DNA of 64,000 nucleotides from Candidatus Nomurabacteria bacterium (GTDB lineage: Bacteria > Patescibacteriota > Minisyncoccia > Phycocordibacterales > UBA918), in assembly GCA_023898525.1 (NCBI GenBank), contig CP060227.1, positions 645,836-709,835 of the forward strand, given 5' to 3'. Positions within the stretch are counted from its first letter, which is position 1; each line of letters opens with the position of its first letter. Below, piece by piece: positions 20,591 to 53,504 of this stretch. The notes under the pieces are model-generated. The model did no database searches. It saw nothing but the letters and a program-made list of their open reading frames with translations, and was not told the DNA's origin. A program made the position numbers and the translations under genes.

Positions 20591-20689
20591 ATGAAAATAT
20601 TTAGGTTTTTAAGAGGTGCCAAGACGCGTTGTCTCCGGCTCTGTGTGAAGATAGTTTACTTGATTTGATAGAAGATAGCAAAATTGTTT

Positions 20690-21246
20690 ATTCAAAGAAT
20701 ATACCCCACCTTTCAAGGTGGGGCTATTTCGATACAATAGTAGGTAATGTCACCAATTATAAAAAAGTCACACAGTGCTAGTGAACTAGTCTACCACTTT
20801 GTTTTCCCTGTGAAATACAGAAGAAAGATATTTACCGAAGAAAACGAACCAACCCTGAAGGAGTTAGCTTTGGAATTAGAAAAACGTTACGAACTCCACT
20901 TTTTAGAGATAGGTATAGATAAAGATCATGTTCACTTTCTTATCCAAGCAATTCCAAGCTATGCTCCTTCGTATATTGCCAATACTGTTAAAGGAAACAT
21001 TACTAAACGTTTTTTCTTGGCTCATCCAGAGGTAAAGATCTTTCTCTGGGGTGGTAACCTTTGGACTGATGGCTATTACGTTAATACTGTCGGTAACGCT
21101 AATATGTCTATTGTTAAAAACTACGTACAGAATCAAGGTTTACCTGAATACAAACAATTACACCACCAAACTCTCTCGTTGTTTTAACTTAAAACTCTCT
21201 TCATGTGCCACTGATACCCCGTGTCTTCAGGCCGGGGTAGTTCATT
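20690..21246 (+). mobile_element. IS200/IS605-family insertion sequence, copy A (557 bp, identical to 27229-27785)
   Basis: 557-bp exact repeat with subterminal hairpins (ccccacctttcaaggtgggg at the left end; accccgtgtcttcaggccggggt at the right end) enclosing a Y1 transposase. Confidence 0.8.
20747..21187 (+). CDS. tnpA: IS200/IS605 family transposase TnpA (HUH Y1 transposase)
   Basis: 146 aa; HUH motif DHVHFLIQ and catalytic Tyr region TDGYYVNTVGN; 100% identical to 27286-27726. Confidence 0.85.
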   Translation: MSPIIKKSHSASELVYHFVFPVKYRRKIFTEENEPTLKELALELEKRYELHFLEIGIDKDHVHFLIQAIPSYAPSYIANTVKGNITKRFFLAHPEVKIFLWGGNLWTDGYYVNTVGNANMSIVKNYVQNQGLPEYKQLHHQTLSLF

Positions 21247-22132: not shown

Positions 22133-22560
22133 TGTTTACTTTTACAATCTCTAATATGAGCATTATTCATGACAAATGAAATTTCTTTAGGAGTAGAAAA
22201 AGGATATGCTTTTTGACTCATTTCCTTACATATGTCACAAACGTACTCATCCTCTGCAGTAAATAATCGAACGCTTTTTACAACTCCTGATTGTGACATA
22301 TGCCTTATGTTGTTTCTAGCTTCATGTAGAGAACCCTCATAATCTTGACCATTATTTTTTAATGCCCATTCATGCATAATAAAAGGTAAATCTGATTTCT
22401 TAACCCATTTCTTTTCTCCAGAAACTAAAGTTCTTGCATAGATATCCTCACCACATTTTGGACATTTTTTCTTTCTTGTTGGATTACTTACGTCCGTATT
22501 GCAATAAGGACAATTTGTATATGTTTTTAAAACGGTTTCCTTTTTGAATAAGCCAAACAT
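22090..22560 (-). CDS. hypothetical zinc-ribbon protein
   Basis: Start reassigned to MFGLFKK (22560) because the longer ORF reads through the repeat element; CPYC..CPKC N-terminal zinc ribbon and C-terminal CDIC...CKSKHCRC cysteine cluster. Confidence 0.5.
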   Translation of the reverse strand: MFGLFKKETVLKTYTNCPYCNTDVSNPTRKKKCPKCGEDIYARTLVSGEKKWVKKSDLPFIMHEWALKNNGQDYEGSLHEARNNIRHMSQSGVVKSVRLFTAEDEYVCDICKEMSQKAYPFSTPKEISFVMNNAHIRDCKSKHCRCFWKPEDISIE

Positions 22561-22580
22561 TATATATTGATTATAACAAA

Positions 22581-22735
22581 GCGGGTGAGAAGAATCGGTC
22601 ACCTTCGCATCAATATTTTGTTCGACCAAGGGTCTCCAAAATATTGTGCTACGCGACCCCGTCGCTTCATACCGAAGCAAAAAGTGTTTTGCTTCAGGCT
22701 TCGCATGAAGCTCTTTTCGATTCTTCTCACCCGCA
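22581..22735. repeat. tRNA-Gly(TCC) 3'-end-associated structured element, copy 1
   Basis: Termini are a direct 17-nt copy (gcgggtgagaagaatcg, identical to 30607-30623 inside tRNA-Gly-TCC) and an inverted copy (cgattcttctcacccgca) of the tRNA 3' end; ~120-bp core shared with 43461-43608, with compensatory changes in three stems. Confidence 0.7.
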
Positions 22736-22786
22736 CAAATGGCCGGCCGAAACGCGAAAGCGTTTCGGCCGGCCATTTGTGCGGGC
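22730..22786. other. perfect GC-rich inverted repeat (26-bp arms)
   Basis: cccgcacaaatggccggccgaaacgc-gaaag-gcgtttcggccggccatttgtgcggg, starting inside the inverted tRNA-end fragment; lies just 3' of the minus-strand CYTH gene. Confidence 0.6.
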
Positions 22787-22849
22787 TATTCAACGATGTT
22801 CGAACTTTTTTAATGAAAATGACCACCCCAAATTGAGGTGGCCAAGGAA

Positions 22850-23455
22850 TTATTGGAATGGATTTTCCATTCCAAAAGTAATTAAAGGTGTTCCGTTATT
22901 GATTACATCTTTTGAAACACCGTATTTATCTTCATAGAGCTGGTCTACCGCGCAAAACTTTGCATCAGACCACTGAAACCCCAGTTTTTCAGACACTGTT
23001 CTCACAACATCCTCTGAAACACCCTCAACCTCCACGAATGAATCGAGAAATGGCCATGTGTCTATTGTCACTTCGACACCATCAAGCAACCAAAGCTCCC
23101 TCAAGGTTTCTTGATAAGCCTTTCGTACACACCCAAGCGACTCGAGCAAGAGTTCAGCGTTTTCGAATGAGTCCACTTGTACACAGACCTCTTTTTGGTC
23201 ATGTATAGCATCACCTCCTACTGATTTAACACTGACTGTGATTTTATCTGACTCGTCTCGTACACGAGCCCATCCATTTACCACCTGCGAGGTTGCTGGA
23301 AGATTGAAAACACTTCTCTTCTGCAAGAATTCACTCTTTTGAAGTTTCGCTCCAGCAGATGAAAGTTTTTCTCTGATTATCTCTTTATCCACCTTAACAA
23401 AGGTAGCTTCGTATTCGATTTGCATATTTTCTCCAACTGGTTTCAAATTCTCCAC
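22850..23455 (-). CDS. CYTH-domain protein (triphosphate tunnel metalloenzyme / class IV adenylyl cyclase-like)
   Basis: N-terminal MQIEYEATFVKV (ExE-type strand) and C-terminal acidic strand VTIDTWPFLDSFVEVEGVSED typical of CYTH; paralogous to the next gene. Confidence 0.6.
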   Translation of the reverse strand: MENLKPVGENMQIEYEATFVKVDKEIIREKLSSAGAKLQKSEFLQKRSVFNLPATSQVVNGWARVRDESDKITVSVKSVGGDAIHDQKEVCVQVDSFENAELLLESLGCVRKAYQETLRELWLLDGVEVTIDTWPFLDSFVEVEGVSEDVVRTVSEKLGFQWSDAKFCAVDQLYEDKYGVSKDVINNGTPLITFGMENPFQ

Positions 23456-26564: not shown

Positions 26565-27320
26565 ATGGAAACTGCAAATATACTAGACAGAAAACTTGCT
26601 GCTATAGAAACCAGTCAGACTGACACTGACTGTTTTAAGCATATCCACGGCTACATAAAATACATACTCGAAACACCAGAGCTGAAAGCAATTCTTGATA
26701 CTGAAGAAAAAGATTTCTACAGAAAAGTTAAGTTCACAGATGACAATATCAAACTAGAACAAGCTAATTATTATCAAGCGTATTTTGTTGCATCGTACGT
26801 CCGTATTTATCTCCCAATCGAACACTACTGGAACAGCAACGAACAAGATGAAAAACAAGACCCTGTTGCACTGCTTTTAATTTGGGGGCCAAAACACCCA
26901 CGAACTATGAAATGGGTGAACGGTCATGATTTCTTTTCTAAAAGAGAACAGCTCAAACAACTTAAAAGCTATTGGCAGTGGTTTGATGGTCAGCGTGATT
27001 TTTACATCAGTGAAATCAAAAACCTACACCTTGCCTTGATTACAGAATTATCTAAACAGAAAGCATTGCCAACTGTGGCCGATGAAAAGCCAGATGTTTT
27101 TCAGATGAACTTAGAAACAGGCGACTTTAATCTTGGTGGTGTTACTGGAACGTTGAACATAACAACCCAAGAATTTAGAGTGATGGCAAAATTATATACA
27201 GCACCCAATCATCGTATGCCATATCTTGATTCAAAGAATATACCCCACCTTTCAAGGTGGGGCTATTTCGATACAATAGTAGGTAATGTCACCAATTATA
27301 AAAAAGTCACACAGTGCTAG
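26565..27320 (+). CDS. hypothetical protein; C-terminal ~25 aa encoded by the IS200 left end
   Basis: 251-aa ORF immediately after the XRE gene; its last residues (...NIPHLSRWGYFDTIVGNVTNYKKVTQC) come from IS200 copy B, suggesting IS insertion into the gene's 3' end. Confidence 0.5.
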   Translation: METANILDRKLAAIETSQTDTDCFKHIHGYIKYILETPELKAILDTEEKDFYRKVKFTDDNIKLEQANYYQAYFVASYVRIYLPIEHYWNSNEQDEKQDPVALLLIWGPKHPRTMKWVNGHDFFSKREQLKQLKSYWQWFDGQRDFYISEIKNLHLALITELSKQKALPTVADEKPDVFQMNLETGDFNLGGVTGTLNITTQEFRVMAKLYTAPNHRMPYLDSKNIPHLSRWGYFDTIVGNVTNYKKVTQC

Positions 27321-27785
27321 TGAACTAGTCTACCACTTTGTTTTCCCTGTGAAATACAGAAGAAAGATATTTACCGAAGAAAACGAACCAACCCTGAAGG
27401 AGTTAGCTTTGGAATTAGAAAAACGTTACGAACTCCACTTTTTAGAGATAGGTATAGATAAAGATCATGTTCACTTTCTTATCCAAGCAATTCCAAGCTA
27501 TGCTCCTTCGTATATTGCCAATACTGTTAAAGGAAACATTACTAAACGTTTTTTCTTGGCTCATCCAGAGGTAAAGATCTTTCTCTGGGGTGGTAACCTT
27601 TGGACTGATGGCTATTACGTTAATACTGTCGGTAACGCTAATATGTCTATTGTTAAAAACTACGTACAGAATCAAGGTTTACCTGAATACAAACAATTAC
27701 ACCACCAAACTCTCTCGTTGTTTTAACTTAAAACTCTCTTCATGTGCCACTGATACCCCGTGTCTTCAGGCCGGGGTAGTTCATT
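27229..27785 (+). mobile_element. IS200/IS605-family insertion sequence, copy B (identical to 20690-21246)
   Basis: 557-bp exact duplicate including both terminal hairpins. Confidence 0.8.
27286..27726 (+). CDS. tnpA: IS200/IS605 family transposase TnpA
   Basis: Identical to 20747-21187. Confidence 0.85.
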   Translation: MSPIIKKSHSASELVYHFVFPVKYRRKIFTEENEPTLKELALELEKRYELHFLEIGIDKDHVHFLIQAIPSYAPSYIANTVKGNITKRFFLAHPEVKIFLWGGNLWTDGYYVNTVGNANMSIVKNYVQNQGLPEYKQLHHQTLSLF

Positions 27786-34570: not shown

Positions 34571-34680
34571 GTGATTACGGACTGATGAAAAATTTTTGTA
34601 AGAAAATTTTTCATCAGTCAACAATTCCTCTCTACCAGAAACAAAACCGGCCCTTTTTGGGCCGGTTTTGTTTCTGGTTG
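34571..34680. repeat. palindrome + terminator-like hairpin module, copy A
   Basis: ttacg-gactgatgaaaaattttt-gtaa-gaaaatttttcatcagtc-aacaa (34579-34618), then ccagaaacaaaaccggccc-ttttt-gggccggttttgtttctgg (34634-34678). Confidence 0.7.
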
Positions 34681-35130
34681 TTCTAAATATATTTTTATAT
34701 ATTTGAACCGACAAACCGACCCTGATCGCTGACAATCCACCCGAGCACGAGAACAATCACTCGCATGGTGCGCTTGAATGAGTAAATGTTTGTCGAATTA
34801 CTCTGCATAAGTTTTAGTATATACCCATAAAGATGAGTGTCAAATATTTTTCCACTGCTTGATTATAAATATAACCGCACATGATCTGGTCGTGTGCGGT
34901 TATTGATTTGATAATATGGGAGTGCCTATTTGTCTCCATGGGTAGTCTCTCGTTGGATTATTTTTTGACGCGTTTCAATAAACTTTGCCATTATTTTTGC
35001 CCTCCTTAATCCTTCGTCAATAGGCTCTGTTGTGTCAGTTGGCAATTGGTTTTGAAATTGGTTAGTATCTTTTTTGTCCATTATCTTCCCCTTAAGTAGG
35101 ATTATATTAAAAGAACTATATTCAGCCGTT

Positions 35131-35240
35131 TGATTACGGACTGATGAAAAATTTTCTTAAGAAAATTTTTCATCAGTCAATAAATTGTGAAGTAGAACAA
35201 AAATCCGGCCAGTGGCCGGATTTTTGTTCTACTTCGCATT
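35131..35240. repeat. palindrome + terminator-like hairpin module, copy B
   Basis: ttacg-gactgatgaaaaattttcttaagaaaatttttcatcagtc-aataa (35139-35178), then gaagtagaacaaaaatccggcc-agtg-gccggatttttgttctacttc (35190-35237). Confidence 0.7.
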
Positions 35241-35392
35241 TTCTTATTTCATTAAAAACAAAACCGACCAGCTCATAAAGCCAATAATAATGCTAATAAT
35301 TGAAATAATTATTTGCGGTATAAAGCTATATGAAATGGTCGCTGTTTTCGCCCTCATCATTACAGTATATTTGGTATGTCTATTAGTGTCAA

Positions 35393-36475
35393 ATATATGT
35401 ACGATCTCACCACCTTTGAGACTCTATCTCATAATGTTCTCTATAATACTCCATGGGCGACAAAAGACCCAGTCCTTCATGCGGTCTCTCATGGTTATAC
35501 CAATACAACCATTCATTCAGTGAATCATTGAAGTCAGGAATACTATCTCGAAGCAGGGATCGGTGATAAATAATGTGTTCTTCTTGAACGGTACGATTGA
35601 ATCGCTCTATATAGGCATTCATCTTAGGACAACGTGGATAAGTGTGATAATGGTTGATGTTAAGAGTTAAACAAGCTTCGTGGAAGTATTTAGCGAATTC
35701 TGAACCATTATCAGTCTGTATCTCATCTATACTAAAAGGGGTATAGTGTATAAGTTGTTTTAGAAAGTCTCGAGCACTATTTGAAGAATGACTGGTATAA
35801 GTACGAGCGTAAGCAAACCGTCTTTCTATGTCTATGGCGGTGAGTATGTACCGTTTAGTGCCATCTATGTGTCTCACGATAGTGTCTATCTCCAAACCTT
35901 GTTTTTGTGGTCTTCTTTGTTTTTTAACCTTGGTTTTTCTTTGTTCTTTGTGTGTACCACTCTTAGCGTACCAAGAGAGCTTAACTGGATTCGGTAGTCT
36001 ACCTAGTTCTTTAAGATCACTGATACAGCGATTAACATAGGAAACTGACACCTTGAATCCTTCCTTCTTCAATAGCGGTACCAGCTTTTTCCCACCAATC
36101 CGTGGTCGCTTAGTACGCCAGTTGATAATAGCTTGCTCTAGTGGTGGTGATATCTGTCTCACTCTTCGTTTCTTAGGAGCAGTACTCTTGGGGTCTAGGG
36201 CTTGGATATTACCATTACTATCATTTAGTTCTTTTTGCCATCTAAATAAAGTTGGTCTAGATACGCCAAAAGCATCTTTGGTGGTATTAGTACCATGTTT
36301 TTGCCAAAACGTGAGTATTTTAACTCTTCTTTCGACCTCCTGTTTGTTTTTCATTGTCTGCCACTTTAGAGCACTATCAGCCGCTTTGGCAAACCCTCTG
36401 GTGTTCCTTAAAATGTTATGTATTCTCATTACTCCTTATTTAAGGAGTCTCATATGTATGTGAGATTATTCAATA
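35393..36475 (-). mobile_element. IS481-family insertion sequence
   Basis: Single 340-aa DDE transposase flanked by imperfect terminal inverted repeats (atctcac...tgagactc motifs at both ends); boundaries approximate. Confidence 0.6.
35407..36429 (-). CDS. IS481-family DDE transposase (integrase core domain)
   Basis: N-terminal HTH, rve core with D(LTAIDIERRF), D(QTDNGSEF), E(YIERFNRTVQEE) spacing. Confidence 0.8.
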   Translation of the reverse strand: MRIHNILRNTRGFAKAADSALKWQTMKNKQEVERRVKILTFWQKHGTNTTKDAFGVSRPTLFRWQKELNDSNGNIQALDPKSTAPKKRRVRQISPPLEQAIINWRTKRPRIGGKKLVPLLKKEGFKVSVSYVNRCISDLKELGRLPNPVKLSWYAKSGTHKEQRKTKVKKQRRPQKQGLEIDTIVRHIDGTKRYILTAIDIERRFAYARTYTSHSSNSARDFLKQLIHYTPFSIDEIQTDNGSEFAKYFHEACLTLNINHYHTYPRCPKMNAYIERFNRTVQEEHIIYHRSLLRDSIPDFNDSLNEWLYWYNHERPHEGLGLLSPMEYYREHYEIESQRW

Positions 36476-40217: not shown

Positions 40218-41140
40218 TCATTTCTGCGGAACAATATCACTAATGAAATAAGCATAATGGTACTAAATCCTAAGATGATGAAAAACATGCTTGGATTGTC
40301 TTGCATTGGCAATGCAACATTCATACCGTACATTGAGGTTATAACTAGTGGTATGGTCAAAAGAATTGTCAAAACAGTAAGTATTTTTAGGGCGTTATTA
40401 AGACGGCTGGTCATGATGGCCTCAATTGAACCGCGAATATTTTGAATGGTGGTAAGAACTGATCGGGCGGAATTTACCACCTGACTATTGGCTATAACCA
40501 GGTCTTGCATAATCTCTAGATCTTCTTCAAAAAAATGCATGTAACTGTTATTGCCTGTCACCTTCTGTAGCCAGGTGTTGGTCGGGACTAAAGCGTCTAC
40601 CATATTATTGAGGCTACTTTCATATCCTACCAGTCTTTCGATATCCTTTGGTCCAATCCGACTAAGCCTTACACGGTCTTTGTGCACCGCTTTTTGCAGA
40701 CGCTTGAGCTCGCGATCAAAAGAATTAGTAAAAATGCTCATCAAATGTATGAAAAACTTGGTTTTTTGGGTAGTGTGAACTGTCTCATGACCGGAAATTA
40801 TTCGACTAAACTGAGGTACCTCTCGAATATGAATGGTCATGACAAAAGTACTGCCTACTACTATTAGTATAGGTGCGGTAACGTCAACCTGGTTTTGGTT
40901 CTCTGCTCGATACGGATACCTGGTAAAAAAGTAAGTAGCGTTGTCGGTCTTCTCCATTCTAGGTATTTCGTACAAGTCTTTAGCATCAGCCAAAATATCT
41001 TCATCTAGTGAAAACTTCTCTACTAGCTCACTCAACTCATTATCGGTAGGTTCTGATACATTGATCCAGACACCAGAACGTGGCTTATCGATTTGTTTTA
41101 GTGAGTCATCTTTAAGGGTACGGAAATAGTATGTGATCAT
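40208..41140 (-). CDS. corA: CorA-family magnesium/cobalt transporter
   Basis: C-terminal two TMs with signature YGMNV; ends at a TGA stop, overlapping the next gene. Confidence 0.85.
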   Translation of the reverse strand: MITYYFRTLKDDSLKQIDKPRSGVWINVSEPTDNELSELVEKFSLDEDILADAKDLYEIPRMEKTDNATYFFTRYPYRAENQNQVDVTAPILIVVGSTFVMTIHIREVPQFSRIISGHETVHTTQKTKFFIHLMSIFTNSFDRELKRLQKAVHKDRVRLSRIGPKDIERLVGYESSLNNMVDALVPTNTWLQKVTGNNSYMHFFEEDLEIMQDLVIANSQVVNSARSVLTTIQNIRGSIEAIMTSRLNNALKILTVLTILLTIPLVITSMYGMNVALPMQDNPSMFFIILGFSTIMLISLVILFRRNEWL

Positions 41141-41266
41141 CGTCTAATATAATGCCCTATTTAGAGGTATTTGCAAAATAGGTATCTGAATAAAATCTAG
41201 TTTAGAGAACATAAACACTCGCTTTTTTTTAAAATGAGTGTTATTATCATCGCACAAAAAAATAAT

Positions 41267-41302
41267 CGGGGTGTAGCATAGTGGTAGTGTACGCGGTTTG
41301 GG
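41267..41302 (+). repeat. 36-nt exact copy of tRNA-Pro 5' half (positions 1-36, through the anticodon)
   Basis: cggggtgtagcatagtggtagtgtacgcggtttggg, identical to 41407-41442; a further 11-nt copy (cggggtgtaagc) sits in a hairpin at 41337-41366. Confidence 0.8.
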
Positions 41303-41406
41303 GTTCTTTTTTAATTTCATAGCCTTTTTAGTTAAGTCGGGGTGTAAGCAAAAGCTTTCACCCCCGAGCTCGAAACTTAAATGCAGTTTGCGCTTAATTT
41401 CTCGCT

Positions 41407-41477
41407 CGGGGTGTAGCATAGTGGTAGTGTACGCGGTTTGGGACCGTGCGGCCCGGGTTCGATTCCCGGCTCCCCGA
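41407..41477 (+). tRNA. tRNA-Pro (anticodon TGG)
   Basis: CGGGGTG-TA-GCAT-AGTGGTA-GTGT-A-CGCGG-TTTGGGA-CCGTG-CGGC-CCGGG-TTCGATT-CCCGG-CTCCCCG-A; one U-U mismatch in the acceptor stem; anticodon UGG. Confidence 0.75.
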
Positions 41478-41592
41478 CTTAGCCTGAAAGGTTATGAAAT
41501 TAGAAAGGAATTAGTAATAGTAAACAAAAATTAACGTGACTCAAATAAAGAATTTGGGCAGTTCTTTATTTTAGTTTAAAAACAACAAAAAT

Positions 41593-41606
41593 GTTCCACG
41601 TGAAAC
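41593..41606. promoter_or_regulatory. GTTCCACGTGAAAC palindromic motif (copy 1), candidate operator
   Basis: Exact 14-mer repeated at 42147-42160, inverted copy at 41711-41723, CACATG variants at 41617 and 42078; flank the yraN-like gene. Confidence 0.35.
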
Positions 41607-41666
41607 ATATATTTATCGTTACACATGAAACGAAAATAAATATTTATACAATTATAATTGCAGCAA

Positions 41667-42092
41667 TTAATCCAATATAACATTCGGTATATATTTTACC
41701 GTAGAAAACTTTTCACGTGGAACAACTTTTACAGCCACAACATCAATTTGCCAGTCTAAATCACACTTATTTTCTGTTAACCAGGATTCTATAGTTCTAG
41801 CCAGCTTTTTTATCTTAAATTCATGAACATTATCCTCCGGACGCCAAGTTTCATGTGTAACACCAGTTATAAGATCGGATTTTGTTTTATATGAAACCGT
41901 TTTTACCTCAATGAAATGTATTTTATCTGTTCTACGTGTAACAATGTCAATTTCACCCCATTTTTTAAGGTAATTGTATTGAACTACCTTAAATCCTTTG
42001 TTTTCCAGGTATTTACCGGCTAATTTCTCTCCTAAGTAACCTATTTCTTTATTTTTCTGCTTTTTGCTTAGATTCCGTTGCACATGGAACAT
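41667..42092 (-). CDS. yraN: YraN/UPF0102-family endonuclease
   Basis: GYLGEKLAGKYLENKGFKVVQYNYLKKWGEIDIVTRR...IHFIEVKT, the UPF0102 Holliday-junction-resolvase-like signature. Confidence 0.75.
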   Translation of the reverse strand: MFHVQRNLSKKQKNKEIGYLGEKLAGKYLENKGFKVVQYNYLKKWGEIDIVTRRTDKIHFIEVKTVSYKTKSDLITGVTHETWRPEDNVHEFKIKKLARTIESWLTENKCDLDWQIDVVAVKVVPREKFSTVKYIPNVILD

Positions 42093-42146
42093 TATAGCAT
42101 TACTGCAAGTGTAATATTTCGTTTCTTATGGAACAATAATTATAAC

Positions 42147-42160
42147 GTTCCACGTGAAAC
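42147..42160. promoter_or_regulatory. GTTCCACGTGAAAC palindromic motif (copy 2), candidate operator in the yraN upstream region
   Basis: Exact duplicate of 41593-41606, 55 nt upstream of the yraN start codon. Confidence 0.35.
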
Positions 42161-42455
42161 GCTTAATATTTAGAAATAATTGTTACATATATAAAGGACG
42201 TTATTTAAAGCCATATATTGTTTTGTCCTTTATAAAAGACATTGTCCGTTATCCACCTATACACTGTCTTTTCCACAGAAATCGTTGTTATTTATTTGTT
42301 GTCTCGTCAGCAAATACATTTCCACTATTGCGTACAATTGTTGCTTTATTTTCTCTAAAAAATAGTTTATTGTATCAGTAAAGGTCCCCCCCCGATGACA
42401 AGAACCCCTGGGTTCTTCCGCAAGGATAGTCGGGGGGGTCATTGTTTTTATATAT

Positions 42456-43196
42456 TTAATAAAAATACTTTTCTCCGTTTCTAAAAATATCAAACTCACT
42501 CTTAACATTGTGCTTAATCTCGTTGTATGGACGTAATTCATTATCAGTCCATTTCTTTTTCATGGCCCAACAACAATAATCTGCTATTTGGCAATTAACA
42601 TCTGACTTAGTCGAATGAAAATACATGTAGGGAACTAAACCAAAATGTGATTTTATATATTGCTTGATAGACTTAGTGACAAATTCTCTTTTTTTATTAG
42701 GTAACGCTTGATCTAATACTACCACGACCTTTTTTATACCTAAAGATGCTCGAATTTTTAAATATCGGTGACAGACATACTTCAATAAAGTTTCACATAA
42801 TTGTTTATAAAATTTTTCGTGAACCTGTTCAGTTTTAATCTTTAAAAATCCAGTTTTACTACTTTCGGCCATAACTTCTTCATATAAAGTAAAATTGGCT
42901 TTTCTTTTCTCTGCTATAACACTATCTATTTCATAGTCTGGAAGATCTTTAATTTTTTCGTAAAACTTGTTGCGTACCACTTGTGCATCAACAGTGGCGT
43001 GAAAATATTCAATATTATAACCTTCACAAAGAAGTTCATAACGTGCAGAAAGAGGTAAGTCTCGTCTATTTAAAGGATGAATTGTACTAGCTGCGGTCAA
43101 TATAAAAAACTTACTTCCTTTGTTTGAAAAAGTAAAATCACCTGATTCATCAATAAATATATAAAGTATATTATCTTTTTTCTCTTGTTCTGCCAT
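42456..43196 (-). CDS. DUF3800-domain protein
   Basis: N-terminal NILYIFIDESGDF, the DUF3800 hallmark; start set to MAEQEKK (43196). Confidence 0.55.
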   Translation of the reverse strand: MAEQEKKDNILYIFIDESGDFTFSNKGSKFFILTAASTIHPLNRRDLPLSARYELLCEGYNIEYFHATVDAQVVRNKFYEKIKDLPDYEIDSVIAEKRKANFTLYEEVMAESSKTGFLKIKTEQVHEKFYKQLCETLLKYVCHRYLKIRASLGIKKVVVVLDQALPNKKREFVTKSIKQYIKSHFGLVPYMYFHSTKSDVNCQIADYCCWAMKKKWTDNELRPYNEIKHNVKSEFDIFRNGEKYFY

Positions 43197-43460
43197 AAAG
43201 ATTAAAACATTATAGCAGTTTAGTAGCACGCCCCTTAGAACGAAACTTATACAGGGAGAATCGTCCCGGAATAGCGGCTATTTTGTTTCGTTTCACTCAC
43301 AAAATAGACTCGCTTTCCTGGACGGCTTCTCCTCGTTTTGTTCGCTAAGAAAGCTCACAAAACATCGTCCGAAGCTTCGATTCTCCACGTAAAGCATGAA
43401 AATTTTGCTCTGGCCGTACGAACAAAAATGGCGCCAATTGTATCGATGTTTTTATAGAAA

Positions 43461-43608
43461 GAGGGAGAATCGGTCACCTTCGCATCAATATTTTGTTCGT
43501 TCTGCGAACTCCAAAATATTGTGCTACGCGACCTCGTCGTTCCGTTCTGATTCTTCGTACCTCAGAATCAGGCTTCGCACGGAACTCTTTTCGATTCTCC
43601 CTGGCCGC
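43461..43608. repeat. tRNA-Gly(GCC) 3'-end-associated structured element, copy 2
   Basis: Termini agggagaatcg (direct) and cgattctccctggccgc (inverted) match the adjacent tRNA-Gly-GCC 3' end; conserved core with covarying stems relative to 22581-22735. Confidence 0.7.
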
Positions 43609-43620
43609 TACCAACGGCAA

Positions 43621-43650
43621 AGGCCCAGAAAGTATCCACTTTCTGGGCCT
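43621..43650 (-). terminator. hairpin terminator immediately 3' of tRNA-Gly(GCC)
   Basis: aggcccagaaagt-atcc-actttctgggcct. Confidence 0.55.
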
Positions 43651-43659
43651 GCCGATTGG

Positions 43660-43730
43660 TGCGGCCAGGGAGAATCGAACTCCCGACTAATCCTTGGCAA
43701 GGACTCATTATACCACTTAACCATGGCCGC
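43660..43730 (-). tRNA. tRNA-Gly (anticodon GCC)
   Basis: Reverse complement GCGGCCA-TG-GTTA-AGTGGTA-TAAT-G-AGTCC-TTGCCAA-GGATT-AGTC-GGGAG-TTCGATT-CTCCC-TGGCCGC-A; anticodon GCC. Confidence 0.85.
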
Positions 43731-43739
43731 ATTTTATAT

Positions 43740-44420
43740 TTATTTTTGTAGGTCTTTTGAAGCTAACTCAAGCCAATGCATAAGCTTTTTCTTCAAAAGC
43801 GTACTGCCGATTATAGTATTACCAACGCCAAAATGCAACGCCTTTTTACTACCACCGTTAATAAATTGGTTTTTGTAAAATTGACTGACTGATAACTTAA
43901 TCTTTCTACTCCAATGTTTCATCGCTTTTACCTCATCCATATCAGGGTAGAGAAGTAACCAAAATCTAAACGATGATTTTTCTACTCCCAAAAACTCCGT
44001 AGCGAATTTTATAAAAATACTATGCAGTTCAGTTTGGCCAGTGGTAAGGCGGATAAGGTTCTTGTGTTTCATATCACCCTCACACCTATAGAGCATTAGG
44101 CCAGAGACAAACAACGGGGAATTAAGGTAATGCTTATACTCAGTCTCTGCCAAACGCAAAATCTCCTTATATTGAGCCGTTCTTTCGGCATTTCGTGCTT
44201 TGTTTACCAGCTTTATTCTTCCTACATTATCTTTATACGCTCTATCTAGATTAGTCTTGGCTATACGTTTAGAAAACCCTTCATCTTTAAGCCAATTTGA
44301 GACCGTGCCACGCGAAACATCACAGATCTTAGCAATTTCGGTGTAAGTAAAACCACGTTTTCTAAAAGCTATAGCTTGTTCATATGCTTCTTTTTTATAA
44401 GTTACGCGTGAATTTACCAT
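43740..44420 (-). CDS. hypothetical protein with N-terminal helix-turn-helix
   Basis: GFTYTEIAKICDVSRGTVSNWLKDEG resembles a sigma-70 region-4/Sin-type HTH; the rest unassigned. Confidence 0.45.
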   Translation of the reverse strand: MVNSRVTYKKEAYEQAIAFRKRGFTYTEIAKICDVSRGTVSNWLKDEGFSKRIAKTNLDRAYKDNVGRIKLVNKARNAERTAQYKEILRLAETEYKHYLNSPLFVSGLMLYRCEGDMKHKNLIRLTTGQTELHSIFIKFATEFLGVEKSSFRFWLLLYPDMDEVKAMKHWSRKIKLSVSQFYKNQFINGGSKKALHFGVGNTIIGSTLLKKKLMHWLELASKDLQK

Positions 44421-51364: not shown

Positions 51365-51571
51365 ATGCAAACAAGAATACGAGGAAATAGAGATGGATTA
51401 AATAGACGAAACGAAAGTTACAATTTCAAAGGAAGGAATTATAGTAGATCTAAAATGGTAAAAAGGGTAGAGAGAGGACTTCATCCTGAAAATATGGTTG
51501 TAAAAATAAATAATCGTAAGTACGTTAAAGATAAACCAGATTCTTCAAAAAGGGATAATGTTAATCGTTAA
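51365..51571 (+). CDS. small basic hypothetical protein
   Basis: 68 aa, Arg/Lys/Asn-rich; no motif. Confidence 0.3.
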   Translation: MQTRIRGNRDGLNRRNESYNFKGRNYSRSKMVKRVERGLHPENMVVKINNRKYVKDKPDSSKRDNVNR

Positions 51572-51806
51572 GTAAAAACTTCCTTTTCGTATAATCAGGA
51601 ATTATTTGTGGTCACGAATCACTAAGTATATTTGTTCGTCTACGACTCCAAATCTACTAAGTGTTCTCGACCCGCCAGGACTCGCTCCTTACAGGAGCAG
51701 TACCCCAATTGGCTGGATTGGTTCGCTCCACTCCCAATCCAGCTCAATCGGGCTTCGAGTCGTGCTACGGCTTTTTCTTCCACTATCGTTTCAGAAAAAC
51801 CCTGCA

Positions 51807-51880
51807 CCTGGCGGGTGCACAGAAAATGTTAAAGACCAGCGTTTTAGCTGGTCTTTAACATTTTCTGTGCACCCGCCAGG
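51807..51880. repeat. perfect 34-bp-arm inverted repeat whose right arm is the tRNA-Arg 3' end plus 3' trailer
   Basis: cctggcgggtgcacagaaaatgttaaagaccagc-gtttta-gctggtctttaacattttctgtgcacccgccagg; direct copy of the tRNA 3' end (cccgccaggactcg) again at 51671-51684. Confidence 0.8.
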
Positions 51881-51939
51881 ACTCGAACCCAGAACGACTG
51901 ATCCGAAGTCAGTTGTGATATCCATTTCACCACGGGTGC
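51868..51939 (-). tRNA. tRNA-Arg (anticodon TCG)
   Basis: Reverse complement GCACCCG-TG-GTGA-AATGGATA-TCAC-A-ACTGA-CTTCGGA-TCAGT-CGTT-CTGGG-TTCGAGT-CCTGG-CGGGTGC-A; anticodon UCG. Confidence 0.8.
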
Positions 51940-52028
51940 ATCTATTTATTTGCTTCCGCTATCTTTCAGTGTCTAACATCATACGGTAAATATAGGAAAA
52001 AGCAACGATTTTCTGTTACAATGACCAC

Positions 52029-53504
52029 ATGATCAATCCTCAAGATATACCATTATTTGTACGAAGAGTTGGAGACGAGCTAGAAAAAGCTGGTTTTGAG
52101 GCTTATTTGGTAGGTGGTTGCGTACGCGACCTACTTTTGGGTAAAAAGCCAAAAGACTGGGACTTCACCACCAACGCTCACCCAGACCAAATTCAAGCTA
52201 TTTTTCCAGACAGTTTTTGCAATAATGACTATGGTACGGTCGGAGTGAAAAACAGTGATGAAGAAGCTGAAGCTAGTCTACAAGTAGTCGAAGTTACCCC
52301 GTACCGCAGCGAAGGGGAATACAGTGACAAAAGACGTCCAGACAGCGTTACTTTTGGTGTTTCTTTGGAAGAAGACCTAGCTAGACGAGATTTTACTGTC
52401 AACGCTATCGCTTACCGCATAAAAGACCAAAAAACCGTTGATTTATATGACGGAGTTGAAGATTTGAAAGCCAAACGCCTAAAGGCAGTCGGTGACCCAG
52501 ACAAACGTTTTTCAGAGGATGCTCTTCGTATGATGCGCGCGGTCAGGCTAGCGGCTGAGCTTGATTTTGTTATAGAAGGGGAAACTCTTGCTGGTGTTAC
52601 TAAAAACGCTGCATTACTCAAAGAAATAGCGATTGAAAGAATCACCACAGAGTTTGTGAGAATCATTGATTCAAACAACCCAATGCAAGGGATCGTCTTC
52701 CTAGAAAAGCTTAACTTACTTGAATATATCATTCCTGAACTACGAGAGGGGATTGGCTGTGAGCAGGGCGGTATTCACGCCTATGACGTCTTTGAGCACT
52801 TACTACGCACTATGCAAGCAGCGGCTGACAAGGGTTATTCCACCACCATGCGTATCGCCGCCTTACTACACGATGTAGGTAAGCCAGCCACTAGACGAAC
52901 TGGCGGCAAGAACAAAATGTATACTTTCTTTGGCCACGAAGTGGTAGGAGCGAGAATGACAAGAAAAATCCTAGACCGCCTTAAATATCCACGCGAAGAG
53001 TCACAAATTATCGAAAAATTAGTACGTTGGCACATGTTTTTTGCTGATCCGGACCAGATCACACTATCAGCAGTGCGTCGCACTATTGTCCGAATCGGAG
53101 AGGATCAGATTCAAAACCTCCTTAATTTAAGAGTTTGTGACCGTATTGGTACCGGTAGACCAAAAGAGCAACCATTTAGATTCCGTAAATACAAAGCCAT
53201 GGTAGACGAAGCGCTTCGTGACCCGATATCAGTCAAAATGCTGAAGATAAATGGCAACCGCATCATGGAAATAACCGCTGAAAAACCAGGGAAGAAGCTA
53301 GGTTATGTCCTCCATGCTCTTTTGGAAGAAGTGTTAAACGATCCTAGTAAAAACACCGGAGAATACCTAGAAACCAAGGTTTTAGAGCTCTATAAGCTAC
53401 CTGAGGAGGAATTAAAGGCGTTAGCCGACGCTGGCAAAGAAAAACAAGCCGAGGAAGAAGCTGAGGCTCTAAAGGAGATAGCGAGGGAACATAAAGTGGG
53501 GTAA
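52029..53504 (+). CDS. cca: CCA-adding tRNA nucleotidyltransferase (class II, with HD domain and C-terminal extension)
   Basis: Head motif GGCVRDLLLGKKPKDWDFTT, RRDFTVNA, HD region (LLHDVGKP); 491 aa. Confidence 0.85.
   Translation: MINPQDIPLFVRRVGDELEKAGFEAYLVGGCVRDLLLGKKPKDWDFTTNAHPDQIQAIFPDSFCNNDYGTVGVKNSDEEAEASLQVVEVTPYRSEGEYSDKRRPDSVTFGVSLEEDLARRDFTVNAIAYRIKDQKTVDLYDGVEDLKAKRLKAVGDPDKRFSEDALRMMRAVRLAAELDFVIEGETLAGVTKNAALLKEIAIERITTEFVRIIDSNNPMQGIVFLEKLNLLEYIIPELREGIGCEQGGIHAYDVFEHLLRTMQAAADKGYSTTMRIAALLHDVGKPATRRTGGKNKMYTFFGHEVVGARMTRKILDRLKYPREESQIIEKLVRWHMFFADPDQITLSAVRRTIVRIGEDQIQNLLNLRVCDRIGTGRPKEQPFRFRKYKAMVDEALRDPISVKMLKINGNRIMEITAEKPGKKLGYVLHALLEEVLNDPSKNTGEYLETKVLELYKLPEEELKALADAGKEKQAEEEAEALKEIAREHKVG

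What the first reader, a model, noticed from the sequence alone, without database searches (positions are those of the whole stretch)
41267..41477. Partial 5' copies of tRNA-Pro stacked upstream of the intact gene
An exact 36-nt copy of tRNA-Pro positions 1-36 (acceptor, D-arm, and anticodon stem-loop up to the anticodon's third base) lies 140 nt upstream of the intact tRNA. A further 11-nt copy of the 5' end (cggggtgtaagc) sits in a hairpin (tcggggtg...cacccccga, 41337-41366) between them. Duplication of a tRNA 5' half ending exactly at the anticodon is the footprint expected from integration or excision events that use the anticodon loop as crossover, or from replication slippage. The flanking region (yraN-like nuclease with CACGTG palindromes, DUF3800 protein, then the tRNA-Gly(GCC) module) looks accessory.
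Basis: seen in the sequence. Interest (0 to 1): 0.5.

Follow-up and report, generated by a model that had tools for sequence, protein, structure and literature searches.

The report
Leftover half of nested tRNA-Pro gene
The partial tRNA-Pro copy is real, but it is not a fresh integration scar: it is the truncated left arm of an undescribed "tRNA inside a split tRNA" arrangement that recurs, with strongly co-varying RNA helices, at the same conserved locus in about twenty candidate-phyla-radiation bacteria.

Summary
A 37-nt exact direct repeat (41266-41302 = 41406-41442) covers one upstream T plus tRNA-Pro(UGG) nt 1-36, and an independent Logan contig breaks exactly where a repeat longer than the assembler's word size (taken to be 31) would break it.

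There is no island, integrase or tandem array, and the locus is a conserved syntenic block rather than accessory DNA.

The 103 nt between the copies hold two things:
- The 5' strand of a leader-trailer helix that pairs with the tRNA's trailer.
- A leader hairpin motif (UGUAAGC...GCUUUCA) conserved in 29 related loci.

In 20 related loci the same layout recurs: 5' half, helix strand, intact tRNA-Pro, helix strand, two small hairpins, 3' half (nt 40-71), then the ordinary trailer. The helix pairs in 92% of cells, with 21 of 30 pairs changed on both sides. The two hairpins pair in 96%.

The window lineage has lost the hairpins and the 3' half. Its two nearest relatives have the simple gene, which deletion between the repeats would explain.

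Best reading: a vestigial arm of an old, RNA-level-conserved nested tRNA-Pro unit. What the unit does is unknown.

The parts
41218..41247 (+). Promoter-like block (CTCGC, T8 run, ..., TGtTATTAT) that drives the whole unit
   Evidence: It aligns almost base for base with the blocks upstream of tRNA-Pro in the nearest relatives L039 and L031. A strict regex finds it in 27 of 71 loci. The generic sigma-70 scan did not call it. Its function as a promoter is inferred.
41266..41302 (+). Outer 5' half: T plus tRNA-Pro nt 1-36 (acceptor 5' strand, D arm, anticodon-stem 5' strand, UUUGGG)
   Evidence: 100% direct repeat of 41406-41442. A homologous 5' half sits at the same place in 19 other loci, and in 17 of the 20 loci at least 30 of 36 nt are identical to the local tRNA.
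41303..41342 (+). 5' strand of the leader-trailer helix (stemL); its last 6 nt, TCGGGG, are shared with the leader hairpin
   Evidence: Inverted repeat with 41472-41510. It pairs in the minimum-energy fold, z = -7.1. Covariation across 17 loci.
41337..41367 (+). Leader hairpin ('hairpin B', an acceptor-stem-like minihelix CGGGGUG-UAAGC-loop-GCUUU-CACCCCCGA)
   Evidence: Sequence read. The motif TGTAAGC...GCTTTCA is invariant in 29 related loci upstream of tRNA-Pro.
41368..41406 (+). Rest of the conserved leader (GAGCTCGAAA ... TTTCTCGCT) directly abutting the tRNA
   Evidence: It aligns with the L031, L042 and L065 leaders. Local inverted repeat 41362-41375 / 41398-41411.
41407..41477 (+). Intact tRNA-Pro(UGG), no encoded CCA
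   Evidence: ARAGORN. Rfam RF00005 60.7 bits. Identity of 83-100% to the tRNA-Pro of 67 Patescibacteria species.
41472..41510 (+). 3' strand of the leader-trailer helix (stemR): the last 6 nt of the tRNA plus a 33-nt trailer
   Evidence: Inverted repeat with 41304-41342. Fold. Covariation. Simple-type relatives instead have a trailer that mostly starts CAAAT/CAAAA.
41539..41575 (+). AT-rich hairpin plus T-rich tail: probable remnant of the ancestral tRNA-Pro trailer/terminator that follows the outer 3' half in relatives
   Evidence: Inverted repeat 41539-41552 / 41562-41575, 93%. The resemblance to the L062 terminator (..ttctgggcagttttt) was judged by eye and is weak. The terminator scan did not call it.

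Best explanation
The 36-nt copy is the left (5') arm of an old 'tRNA-in-a-split-tRNA' transcription unit that is typical of a clade of Patescibacteria.

Canonical form of the unit:
- A resident tRNA-Pro gene is interrupted just after its anticodon.
- The interrupting cassette holds a complete tRNA-Pro. Its acceptor stem is prolonged by a roughly 30-bp leader-trailer helix.
- Two small hairpins follow. The first has an anticodon-loop-like loop, (C/U)UGGG(A/G).
- The resident gene's 3' half (nt 40-71) comes next, then its normal trailer.
- The whole unit is read from one promoter upstream of the 5' half.

How it most likely works: the helix forms in the RNA and probably serves maturation of the inner, working tRNA.

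State of the window lineage:
- The right side (both hairpins and the 3' half) has been deleted.
- A conserved leader hairpin sits between the helix strand and the tRNA.
- The 5' half can therefore no longer pair with a partner.
- It is most likely a transcribed vestige, kept identical to the gene by gene conversion. It can be removed by recombination between the repeats, which would explain the simple gene in the two nearest relatives.

Shown: the repeat, the helix and its covariation, the recurrence in relatives, the synteny, and the absence of a mobile element.
Inferred: the origin by insertion, the processing role of the helix, gene conversion, and the vestigial status of the window's 5' half.
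For: - Repeat and inverted repeat.
- Fold: the leader-trailer helix appears in the minimum-energy fold, -107 kcal/mol, z = -7.1.
- Recurrence: 67 species loci carry this tRNA. 15 of them, 4 metagenome contigs and the window have the 5' half and/or helix.
- Leader-trailer duplex energy: -31 to -53 kcal/mol in nested loci against -10 to -28 in simple ones.
- Helix covariation: 30 pairs, 92.4% of cells paired, 21 pairs changed on both sides, 0 of 500 shuffles as high, slid controls 33-51%.
- Strand: G-U in the tRNA-sense strand fills 31 cells at 13 positions; A-C fills 8 cells at 4 positions. This points to RNA pairing on the sense strand.
- Two hairpins: 96.1% paired, 12 of 14 pairs changed on both sides, 0 of 500 shuffles as high.
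- Covariance model of the two hairpins: it hits 17 nested loci (E <= 3e-9, two of them not in the training set), no simple locus, and not the window.
- RNAalifold on four complete examples predicts an outer acceptor stem, the long helix, the inner cloverleaf, both hairpins and an outer T arm (single folds).
- Ancestral context: the outer 3' half is followed by the CAAAT-type trailer of simple genes.
- Nearest relatives: they share the promoter block. L039 has promoter then tRNA. L031 has promoter, leader hairpin, tRNA.
- Synteny is conserved.
- No tRNA-Pro copies lie more than 600 nt away.
Against: - No expression or processing data exist, so the role of the helix is inferred.
- The outer 5' half is very well kept in 17 of 20 loci across deep divergence. 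The two outer-specific hairpins co-vary. The outer part may therefore be functional rather than vestigial.
- Direction of change (loss in L039/L031 versus gain in the window) is not resolved. Nested loci are scattered on a rough neighbour-joining tree, and cassette similarity correlates only weakly with protein similarity, r = 0.26.
- Alignment A1 was made from hand-trimmed pieces, with the leader hairpin cut out of WIN, L042 and L065. Four rows are partly out of register in mid-helix. The tested structure was derived from these same sequences, which favours it over the slid controls.
- The sequences are related, so the shuffle control overstates significance.
Confidence: 0.6

Rival explanations
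1. The nested unit is a functional composite RNA. After RNase P and a 3' nuclease cut out the inner tRNA, the two outer pieces stay paired through the long helix and the outer acceptor stem. Together they form a two-piece tRNA-Pro-like scaffold with acceptor stem, D arm, T arm, the retained UGG bases and an anticodon-loop-mimic hairpin. That scaffold would have its own job, for example binding ProRS or a tRNA enzyme, or acting as a decoy. In the window the 5' half would be a recently orphaned or still partly functional part of it.
For: - The outer-specific hairpins co-vary strongly. They cannot be maintained by conversion from the tRNA.
- The consensus fold contains an outer acceptor stem and T arm.
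- In L017 the outer acceptor pair 6:67 is C-G on both halves while the inner pair is U-A.
- The outer 5' half is identical or nearly identical to the gene in most loci.
- A structured module (GTCTTGCGA-hairpin-TCTCACCC) replaces the T loop of many outer 3' halves, and its hairpin co-varies by eye.
Against: - Substitutions in outer 5' halves often break D-stem or acceptor pairing: L049, L079, L062, L036, L022.
- Five lineages, the window among them, have lost the 3' half.
- Bases 37-39 are always missing, so the outer part cannot become a decoding tRNA.
- The L017 pair may simply be the ancestral state shared by both halves.
- There are no expression data.
Confidence: 0.25
2. Recent footprint of a mobile element that integrated or excised using the anticodon loop as crossover, or a replication-slippage duplication private to this genome.
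For: - A direct repeat ending in the anticodon loop.
- The nearest relatives L039 and L031 lack it, and L039 looks like a precise empty site.
- tRNA fragments from integrations are common in prokaryotes (PMC9897764).
Against: - Only 103 nt lie between the copies, with no ORF or integrase.
- The duplicated part is the 5' part, not the 3' part.
- The same layout occurs in about 20 divergent genomes at the same syntenic site, with co-varying intervening RNA.
- There is no tandem array.
- This tRNA has no hits in viral contigs.
Confidence: 0.07
3. The upstream 5' half and the leader hairpin act as competing pairing partners for the tRNA's 3' strand. This would be a conformational switch or attenuator that tunes how much mature tRNA-Pro is made.
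For: - Three copies of TCGGGGTGTA can each pair with the single CCCCGA 3' strand.
- In the minimum-energy fold the tRNA 3' end pairs with the leader hairpin's 5' strand rather than with its own 5' end.
Against: - This rests on thermodynamic prediction only.
- No terminator-like site lies between the copies.
- Canonical relatives lack the leader hairpin at this position.
Confidence: 0.06
4. Assembly artefact (collapsed or chimeric repeat in the MAG).
For: No single independent contig spans both copies. Both Logan contigs stop at or near the repeat.
Against: - The Logan contig starts with exactly k-1 = 30 nt of the repeat, as a true repeat of 31 nt or more would cause (k=31 is from my own knowledge).
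- An identical sequence is in the NCBI MAG.
- The same part order is found in other species' assemblies.
Confidence: 0.02

Closest known systems
Partial tRNA genes left at integration sites of mobile elements (attL/attR duplications; Williams 2002 as cited in PMC9897764)
   Same: A fragment identical to part of a tRNA gene lies beside the intact gene. The breakpoint is in the anticodon loop, a classic crossover sublocation. Relatives also carry 3'-half and 3'-end copies downstream.
   Different: There is no element or integrase between the copies (103 nt). The window's copy is the 5' part. The intervening sequence is conserved, co-varying RNA shared by about 20 species at a syntenic site. Bases 37-39 are missing at the right junction, so there is no conserved overlap on both sides.
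Leader-trailer helices of rRNA precursors (RNase III processing stalks; PMC11404451)
   Same: Complementary leader and trailer segments enclose a mature stable RNA. The helix is about 30 bp with bulges, is supported by covariation, and has G-U pairs on the transcribed strand.
   Different: It encloses a single tRNA, not an rRNA. It directly prolongs the acceptor stem. It is itself embedded between two tRNA halves. Cleavage by RNase III is untested.
Group I introns in anticodon loops of Patescibacteria tRNA genes (PMC13011429)
   Same: Same phylum, and the same kind of site (anticodon loop) interrupted by structured RNA.
   Different: No group I model match. The insert is far too small (103 nt in the window). 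It contains a whole tRNA. The flanking halves cannot be joined into a complete tRNA.
Split and permuted tRNA genes (Nanoarchaeum equitans, Cyanidioschyzon merolae) and tmRNA / two-piece tmRNA topology (from my own knowledge)
   Same: tRNA halves are separated by other RNA. The 5' and 3' ends could pair into an acceptor/T-arm module while the anticodon arm is replaced by a large insert.
   Different: An intact gene copy is present and is clearly the working tRNA. No bulge-helix-bulge motif or tag reading frame was seen. The host is bacterial, and no splicing endonuclease is expected in bacteria (from my own knowledge).

Membership tests
tRNA fragment from site-specific integration of a mobile element | Direct repeat identical to part of the tRNA, next to the intact gene | tested here: met
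   37-nt 100% repeat.
tRNA fragment from site-specific integration of a mobile element | An integrated element (usually kb-scale, with an integrase) lies between the fragment and the gene | tested here: not met
   The gap is 103 nt and holds only spurious ORFs that overlap the tRNA. No tRNA-Pro copies lie more than 600 nt away in any locus.
tRNA fragment from site-specific integration of a mobile element | The duplicated segment runs from the crossover to the 3' end of the gene | tested here: not met
   The window copy is nt 1-36, the 5' part. Relatives do carry 3' copies downstream.
tRNA fragment from site-specific integration of a mobile element | Close relatives show a precise empty site | tested here: inconclusive
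   L039 has the promoter abutting the intact tRNA. Deletion between the 37-nt repeats predicts the same outcome.
Group I intron in a tRNA anticodon loop | Match to a group I intron covariance model / P3-P9 core of about 200 nt or more | tested here: not met
   Only tRNA hits at gathering score in the window and in 16 loci. Nothing in the permissive scan of 41100-43800. The insert is 103 nt.
Group I intron in a tRNA anticodon loop | The flanking exons join into a complete tRNA | tested here: not met
   The outer 3' half always starts at nt 40, so ACC (nt 37-39) is missing. The window has no separate 3' half.
Leader-trailer processing helix (rRNA type) | Complementary leader and trailer of at least about 17 bp enclosing the mature RNA | tested here: met
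   39-nt inverted repeat, 82%. Present in the fold. 30 pairs in the alignment.
Leader-trailer processing helix (rRNA type) | Pairing supported by covariation | tested here: met
   92.4% paired, 21 of 30 pairs changed on both sides, 0 of 500 shuffles as high. G-U bias on the sense strand.
Leader-trailer processing helix (rRNA type) | Encloses an rRNA and is cut by RNase III / needed for biogenesis | not testable with these tools
   It encloses a tRNA, so the claim is 'works like', not membership. Cleavage needs an experiment.
Split / permuted tRNA gene | The halves are the only source of that tRNA and are joined after transcription | tested here: not met
   An intact tRNA-Pro lies between them. 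The halves lack nt 37-39.
Split / permuted tRNA gene | Bulge-helix-bulge motif at the junction | not tested
   No explicit search for this motif was run.
Slippage-type tandem duplication | Head-to-tail repeat units covering the duplicated stretch | tested here: not met
   TRF finds no array at 41266-41478. Only 37 of the 140 nt are repeated.

The most novel reading that the evidence does not exclude
A clade of Patescibacteria encodes a previously undescribed composite RNA. It is a tRNA-Pro split in its anticodon loop that carries, on a long co-varying helix, a second complete tRNA-Pro plus an anticodon-loop-mimic hairpin. After the inner tRNA is released, the outer pieces would persist as a two-piece tRNA-like RNA with its own function. 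This would be one member of a wider, also undescribed habit in these genomes of capping small structured RNAs with copies of the neighbouring tRNA's ends. Such copies are seen downstream of tRNA-Gly, tRNA-Arg and tRNA-Pro.
Probability: 0.3. Interest if true: 0.8.

Novelty: new variant of a known kind. Interest (0 to 1): 0.6.

Why it matters
- Annotation. Partial tRNA copies are normally read as scars of mobile elements. Here the same signature marks a conserved, structured, single-promoter unit in genomes that are otherwise extremely streamlined. Automatic 'island at tRNA' calls would be wrong in this clade.
- tRNA maturation. A tRNA enclosed by an rRNA-style leader-trailer helix suggests an unusual maturation route in bacteria with reduced RNase sets.
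- New RNA class. If the outer halves are functional, this would be a new class of tRNA-scaffolded RNA.
- Genome dynamics. The locus is also a clean natural example of how short tRNA-derived repeats drive gain, loss and reshuffling of leader elements between close relatives.

Tried and rejected
- The first genome scan used a mistyped tRNA pattern (one T too many) and found nothing. The corrected pattern was checked on the window and then found 67 loci.
- The viral-contig scan for this tRNA gave 0 hits, so there is no sign of a phage source.
- The metagenome scan for the 5'-half/helix junction gave only 9 hits. Four are coding-sequence coincidences and one duplicates L062.
- Rfam found nothing but tRNAs. 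This covered gathering thresholds on the window and 16 loci, and permissive scans of 41100-43800, 22300-23000 and 51500-52100. Sub-threshold microRNA hits merely reflect long hairpins.
- Literature searches found nothing on nested or half tRNA-Pro genes in this phylum. The group I intron paper does not mention tRNA-Pro.
- The attempt to decide vertical descent versus horizontal spread of the cassette was inconclusive (neighbour-joining tree; cassette versus protein identity, r = 0.26).
- A possible pseudoknot between the first hairpin's loop and the trailer start was considered. It was dropped because the apparent covariation (L036) is not followed in L062, L077 or L078.
- Covariation of the leader hairpin could not be assessed because its upper stem is invariant.
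- Splicing of the outer halves into a working tRNA was rejected because nt 37-39 are always absent.
- Hammerhead-type junction motifs were looked for by eye in the hairpin region and not seen. No tool test was run for this.

Full report
**1. Observation**

The window holds tRNA-Pro(UGG) at 41407-41477/8 (ARAGORN; Rfam 60.7 bits). The repeat finder reports a 37-nt, 100% identical direct repeat at 41266-41302 and 41406-41442. It is one upstream T plus tRNA nt 1-36. ARAGORN places the anticodon at nt 33-35, so the copy ends one base past the anticodon.

TCGGGGTGTA occurs three times (41266, 41337, 41406) against 0.05 expected. The middle copy opens a hairpin at 41337-41367.

41304-41342, directly after the partial copy, is the reverse complement (39 nt, 82%) of 41472-41510. 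That stretch is the last six bases of the tRNA plus its trailer. Folded as RNA, 41255-41520 gives a long leader-trailer helix around the hairpin and the tRNA (-107 kcal/mol, z = -7.1).

**2. Is it real?**

- The same sequence is in MAG GCA_020632175.1.
- A Logan contig from another run begins with exactly 30 nt of repeat copy A. That is the break expected in a k=31 graph at a true repeat of 31 nt or more (the value of k is from my own knowledge).
- No independent contig spans both copies.
- The same order of parts is found in other species' assemblies.

**3. Context**

The neighbours are CorA, a UPF0102/YraN-type nuclease, a DUF3800 protein, an HTH protein and tRNA-Gly(GCC).

A degenerate tRNA-Pro pattern found 67 species loci, all Patescibacteria MAGs by record title. 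An earlier mistyped pattern had found nothing.

tblastn shows that the block DUF5667-sigma-hydrolase-CorA | tRNA-Pro | UPF0102 | HTH is syntenic in most of these loci. Only DUF3800 is private to the window. The locus is therefore core, not accessory.

**4. The partial copies recur**

Fifteen of the 67 species loci, four metagenome contigs and the window share one layout. From 5' to 3' it reads:

- a 5' half (nt 1-36);
- a helix strand beginning GGTTC;
- the intact tRNA-Pro;
- the complementary helix strand ending GAACC;
- hairpin 1 (AACAATC-UGGGA-GATTGTT);
- hairpin 2 (CUUUC-GGA-GAAAG);
- a 3' half starting at nt 40;
- the CAAAT-type trailer and terminator that follow simple tRNA-Pro genes.

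Supporting numbers:

- Leader-trailer duplex energy separates nested loci (-31 to -53 kcal/mol) from simple ones (-10 to -28).
- No tRNA-Pro copy lies more than 600 nt from the gene in any locus, so there is no kb-scale island.
- Only tRNA-Pro has upstream 5' halves.
- Downstream copies of the last 20-25 nt are common for tRNA-Gly, tRNA-Arg and tRNA-Pro.

**5. RNA-level conservation**

I aligned 17 loci (A1). The pieces were hand-trimmed, and the leader hairpin was cut out of WIN, L042 and L065.

- The leader-trailer helix (30 pairs) is 92.4% paired.
- 21 pairs are changed on both sides.
- 0 of 500 shuffles reach the observed values.
- Slid controls pair in only 33-51% of cells.
- Mismatches are mostly G-U on the tRNA-sense strand: 31 cells at 13 positions. 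A-C fills 8 cells at 4 positions. This argues for pairing in the sense transcript rather than a purely DNA-level palindrome.

The two hairpins (A2) are 96.1% paired, with 12 of 14 pairs changed on both sides. A covariance model of them hits 17 nested loci (E <= 3e-9). Two of those loci carry an ~85-nt insertion and were not in the training set. The model hits no simple locus and not the window.

RNAalifold on four complete examples predicts an outer acceptor stem, the long helix, the inner cloverleaf, both hairpins and an outer T arm (single folds).

No Rfam family other than tRNA matches.

**6. The 'third copy'**

The hairpin at 41337-41367 belongs to a leader element found upstream of tRNA-Pro in 29 loci. 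Its core TGTAAGC...GCTTTCA is invariant. It looks like an acceptor-stem minihelix.

Its position varies between relatives. It sits upstream of the 5' half in L036, L077 and L079. It sits between helix strand and tRNA in WIN, L042 and L065. It is alone in front of the tRNA in L031 and many simple loci.

**7. The window compared with its nearest relatives**

L039 and L031 (CorA 82% identical) share the window's promoter-like block almost base for base.

- L039: promoter, then the tRNA directly.
- L031: promoter, leader hairpin, tRNA.
- Window: promoter, 5' half, helix strand, leader hairpin, tRNA.

Recombination between the 37-nt repeats would turn the window form into the L039 form. Recombination between the 10-nt TCGGGGTGTA repeats would turn it into the L031 form. 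This is inference.

Downstream, the window keeps the helix strand but lacks both hairpins and the 3' half. It is a truncated variant, as are L073, L008, L061 and L069.

**8. Vestige or functional?**

For a functional outer part:
- The outer 5' half matches the local tRNA at 36 of 36 nt in six loci and at 30 or more in 17 of 20.
- The outer-specific hairpins co-vary.

For a vestige:
- Substitutions in the outer 5' half often break tRNA pairings.
- Bases 37-39 are always missing.
- The 3' half has been lost several times.

I favour homogenisation by gene conversion for the halves and selection on the helix and hairpins. A functional two-piece tRNA-like scaffold is not excluded.

A rough neighbour-joining tree scatters the nested loci. 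Cassette similarity tracks host similarity only weakly (r = 0.26). Old origin with many losses is plausible but unproven.

**9. Comparison with known systems**

- Integration scars (PMC9897764). The repeat and the anticodon-loop breakpoint fit. The missing element, the 5' polarity and the conserved insert do not.
- Group I introns of Patescibacteria tRNAs (PMC13011429). The site and phylum are shared. The model match, size and spliceability fail.
- rRNA leader-trailer helices (PMC11404451). This is the best functional analogue for the helix, but here the helix encloses a tRNA.
- Slippage. TRF finds no array at the tRNA-Pro locus.

**10. Verdict**

The window's copy is most likely the orphaned left arm of a conserved nested tRNA-Pro unit whose leader-trailer helix works at the RNA level. 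The architecture itself appears undescribed and deserves expression and processing experiments.

Noticed in passing
window 51807-51880 (tRNA-Arg(TCG) at 51867-51939, minus strand): A perfect 34-bp palindrome with a 6-nt loop. One arm is the last 14 nt of tRNA-Arg plus 20 nt of trailer. Only sub-threshold hairpin (microRNA model) hits in Rfam. Further downstream (about 51700-51760) lies a hairpin motif, CGAAGCCCGATTGAGCTGGATT...CCAGCCAATTGGGGTAC, that also occurs downstream of tRNA-Pro in L018 and L021.
   Followed up: partly
window 43460-43622 and 22585-22745 (minus strand); tRNA-Gly(GCC) at 43657-43730: Two paralogous copies of a structured element of about 145 nt. They share 51 predicted pairs, 11 with compensatory changes between just two copies. 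Each is closed by a helix made of an antisense plus a sense copy of a tRNA-Gly T-arm/3' end. The copy next to tRNA-Gly(GCC) carries GCC-type ends. The other carries TCC-type ends although tRNA-Gly(TCC) lies 8 kb away. Each is preceded by a long palindrome (43590-43679; 22730-22785 is perfect at 26 bp). No Rfam match.
   Followed up: partly
L006-L065, many loci (e.g. L010 1555-1800, L047 1095-1400); window tRNA-Arg and tRNA-Gly: Direct copies of the last 15-25 nt of tRNA-Gly(GCC/TCC), tRNA-Arg and tRNA-Pro lie 125-315 nt downstream of the gene in a large share of these genomes (20 of 44 tRNA-Gly(GCC), 30 of 69 tRNA-Pro). An inverted T-loop copy (GGGAATCGAA) often precedes them. This looks like a general habit of ending small structured RNAs with the neighbouring tRNA's 3' end, or like arrays of tiny att-flanked remnants.
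   Followed up: partly
window 41594-42160, in and around the UPF0102/YraN gene (41667-42092, minus): Six copies of a 15-nt motif related to the palindrome GTTCCACGTGGAAC. The same motif flanks the UPF0102 gene downstream of tRNA-Pro in many relatives (seen in L013, L031, L039, L044, L062, L063, L065). It may be a protein-binding or regulatory site.
   Followed up: no
window 42456-43229 (minus) and 42386-42443 (plus): The DUF3800 gene is the only gene of the block absent from all 67 related loci, so it is a lineage-specific insertion. Next to it is a sub-threshold match to the Rfam DUF3800-IX RNA motif (27 bits against a gathering score of 36.8, E = 0.008).
   Followed up: no
L024, L036, L042, L049, L052, L077, L078 downstream of tRNA-Pro; L016 3449 after tRNA-Gly: A recurrent module, GTCTTGCGA - variable hairpin (stems differ with compensating changes, by eye) - TCTCACCC, replaces the T loop in many outer 3' halves. 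It is followed by the acceptor 3' strand of the local tRNA.
   Followed up: partly
L052 168-302 and L034 3679-3744: Hairpin 1 of the nested unit itself carries an insertion of about 85 nt right after the UGGG of its anticodon-like loop. This is the same relative position at which the outer tRNA is interrupted. The insert contains CGCAAGAC, which is complementary to the GTCTTGCG module further downstream.
   Followed up: no
window 20687-20986 and 27226-27525: A 300-nt perfect direct repeat 6.5 kb apart.
   Followed up: no
window 34572-36429: An IS-type transposase gene (rve integrase core, 35407-36429, minus). Next to it is a set of long inverted and direct repeats (34572-34624, 35131-35258).
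   Followed up: no
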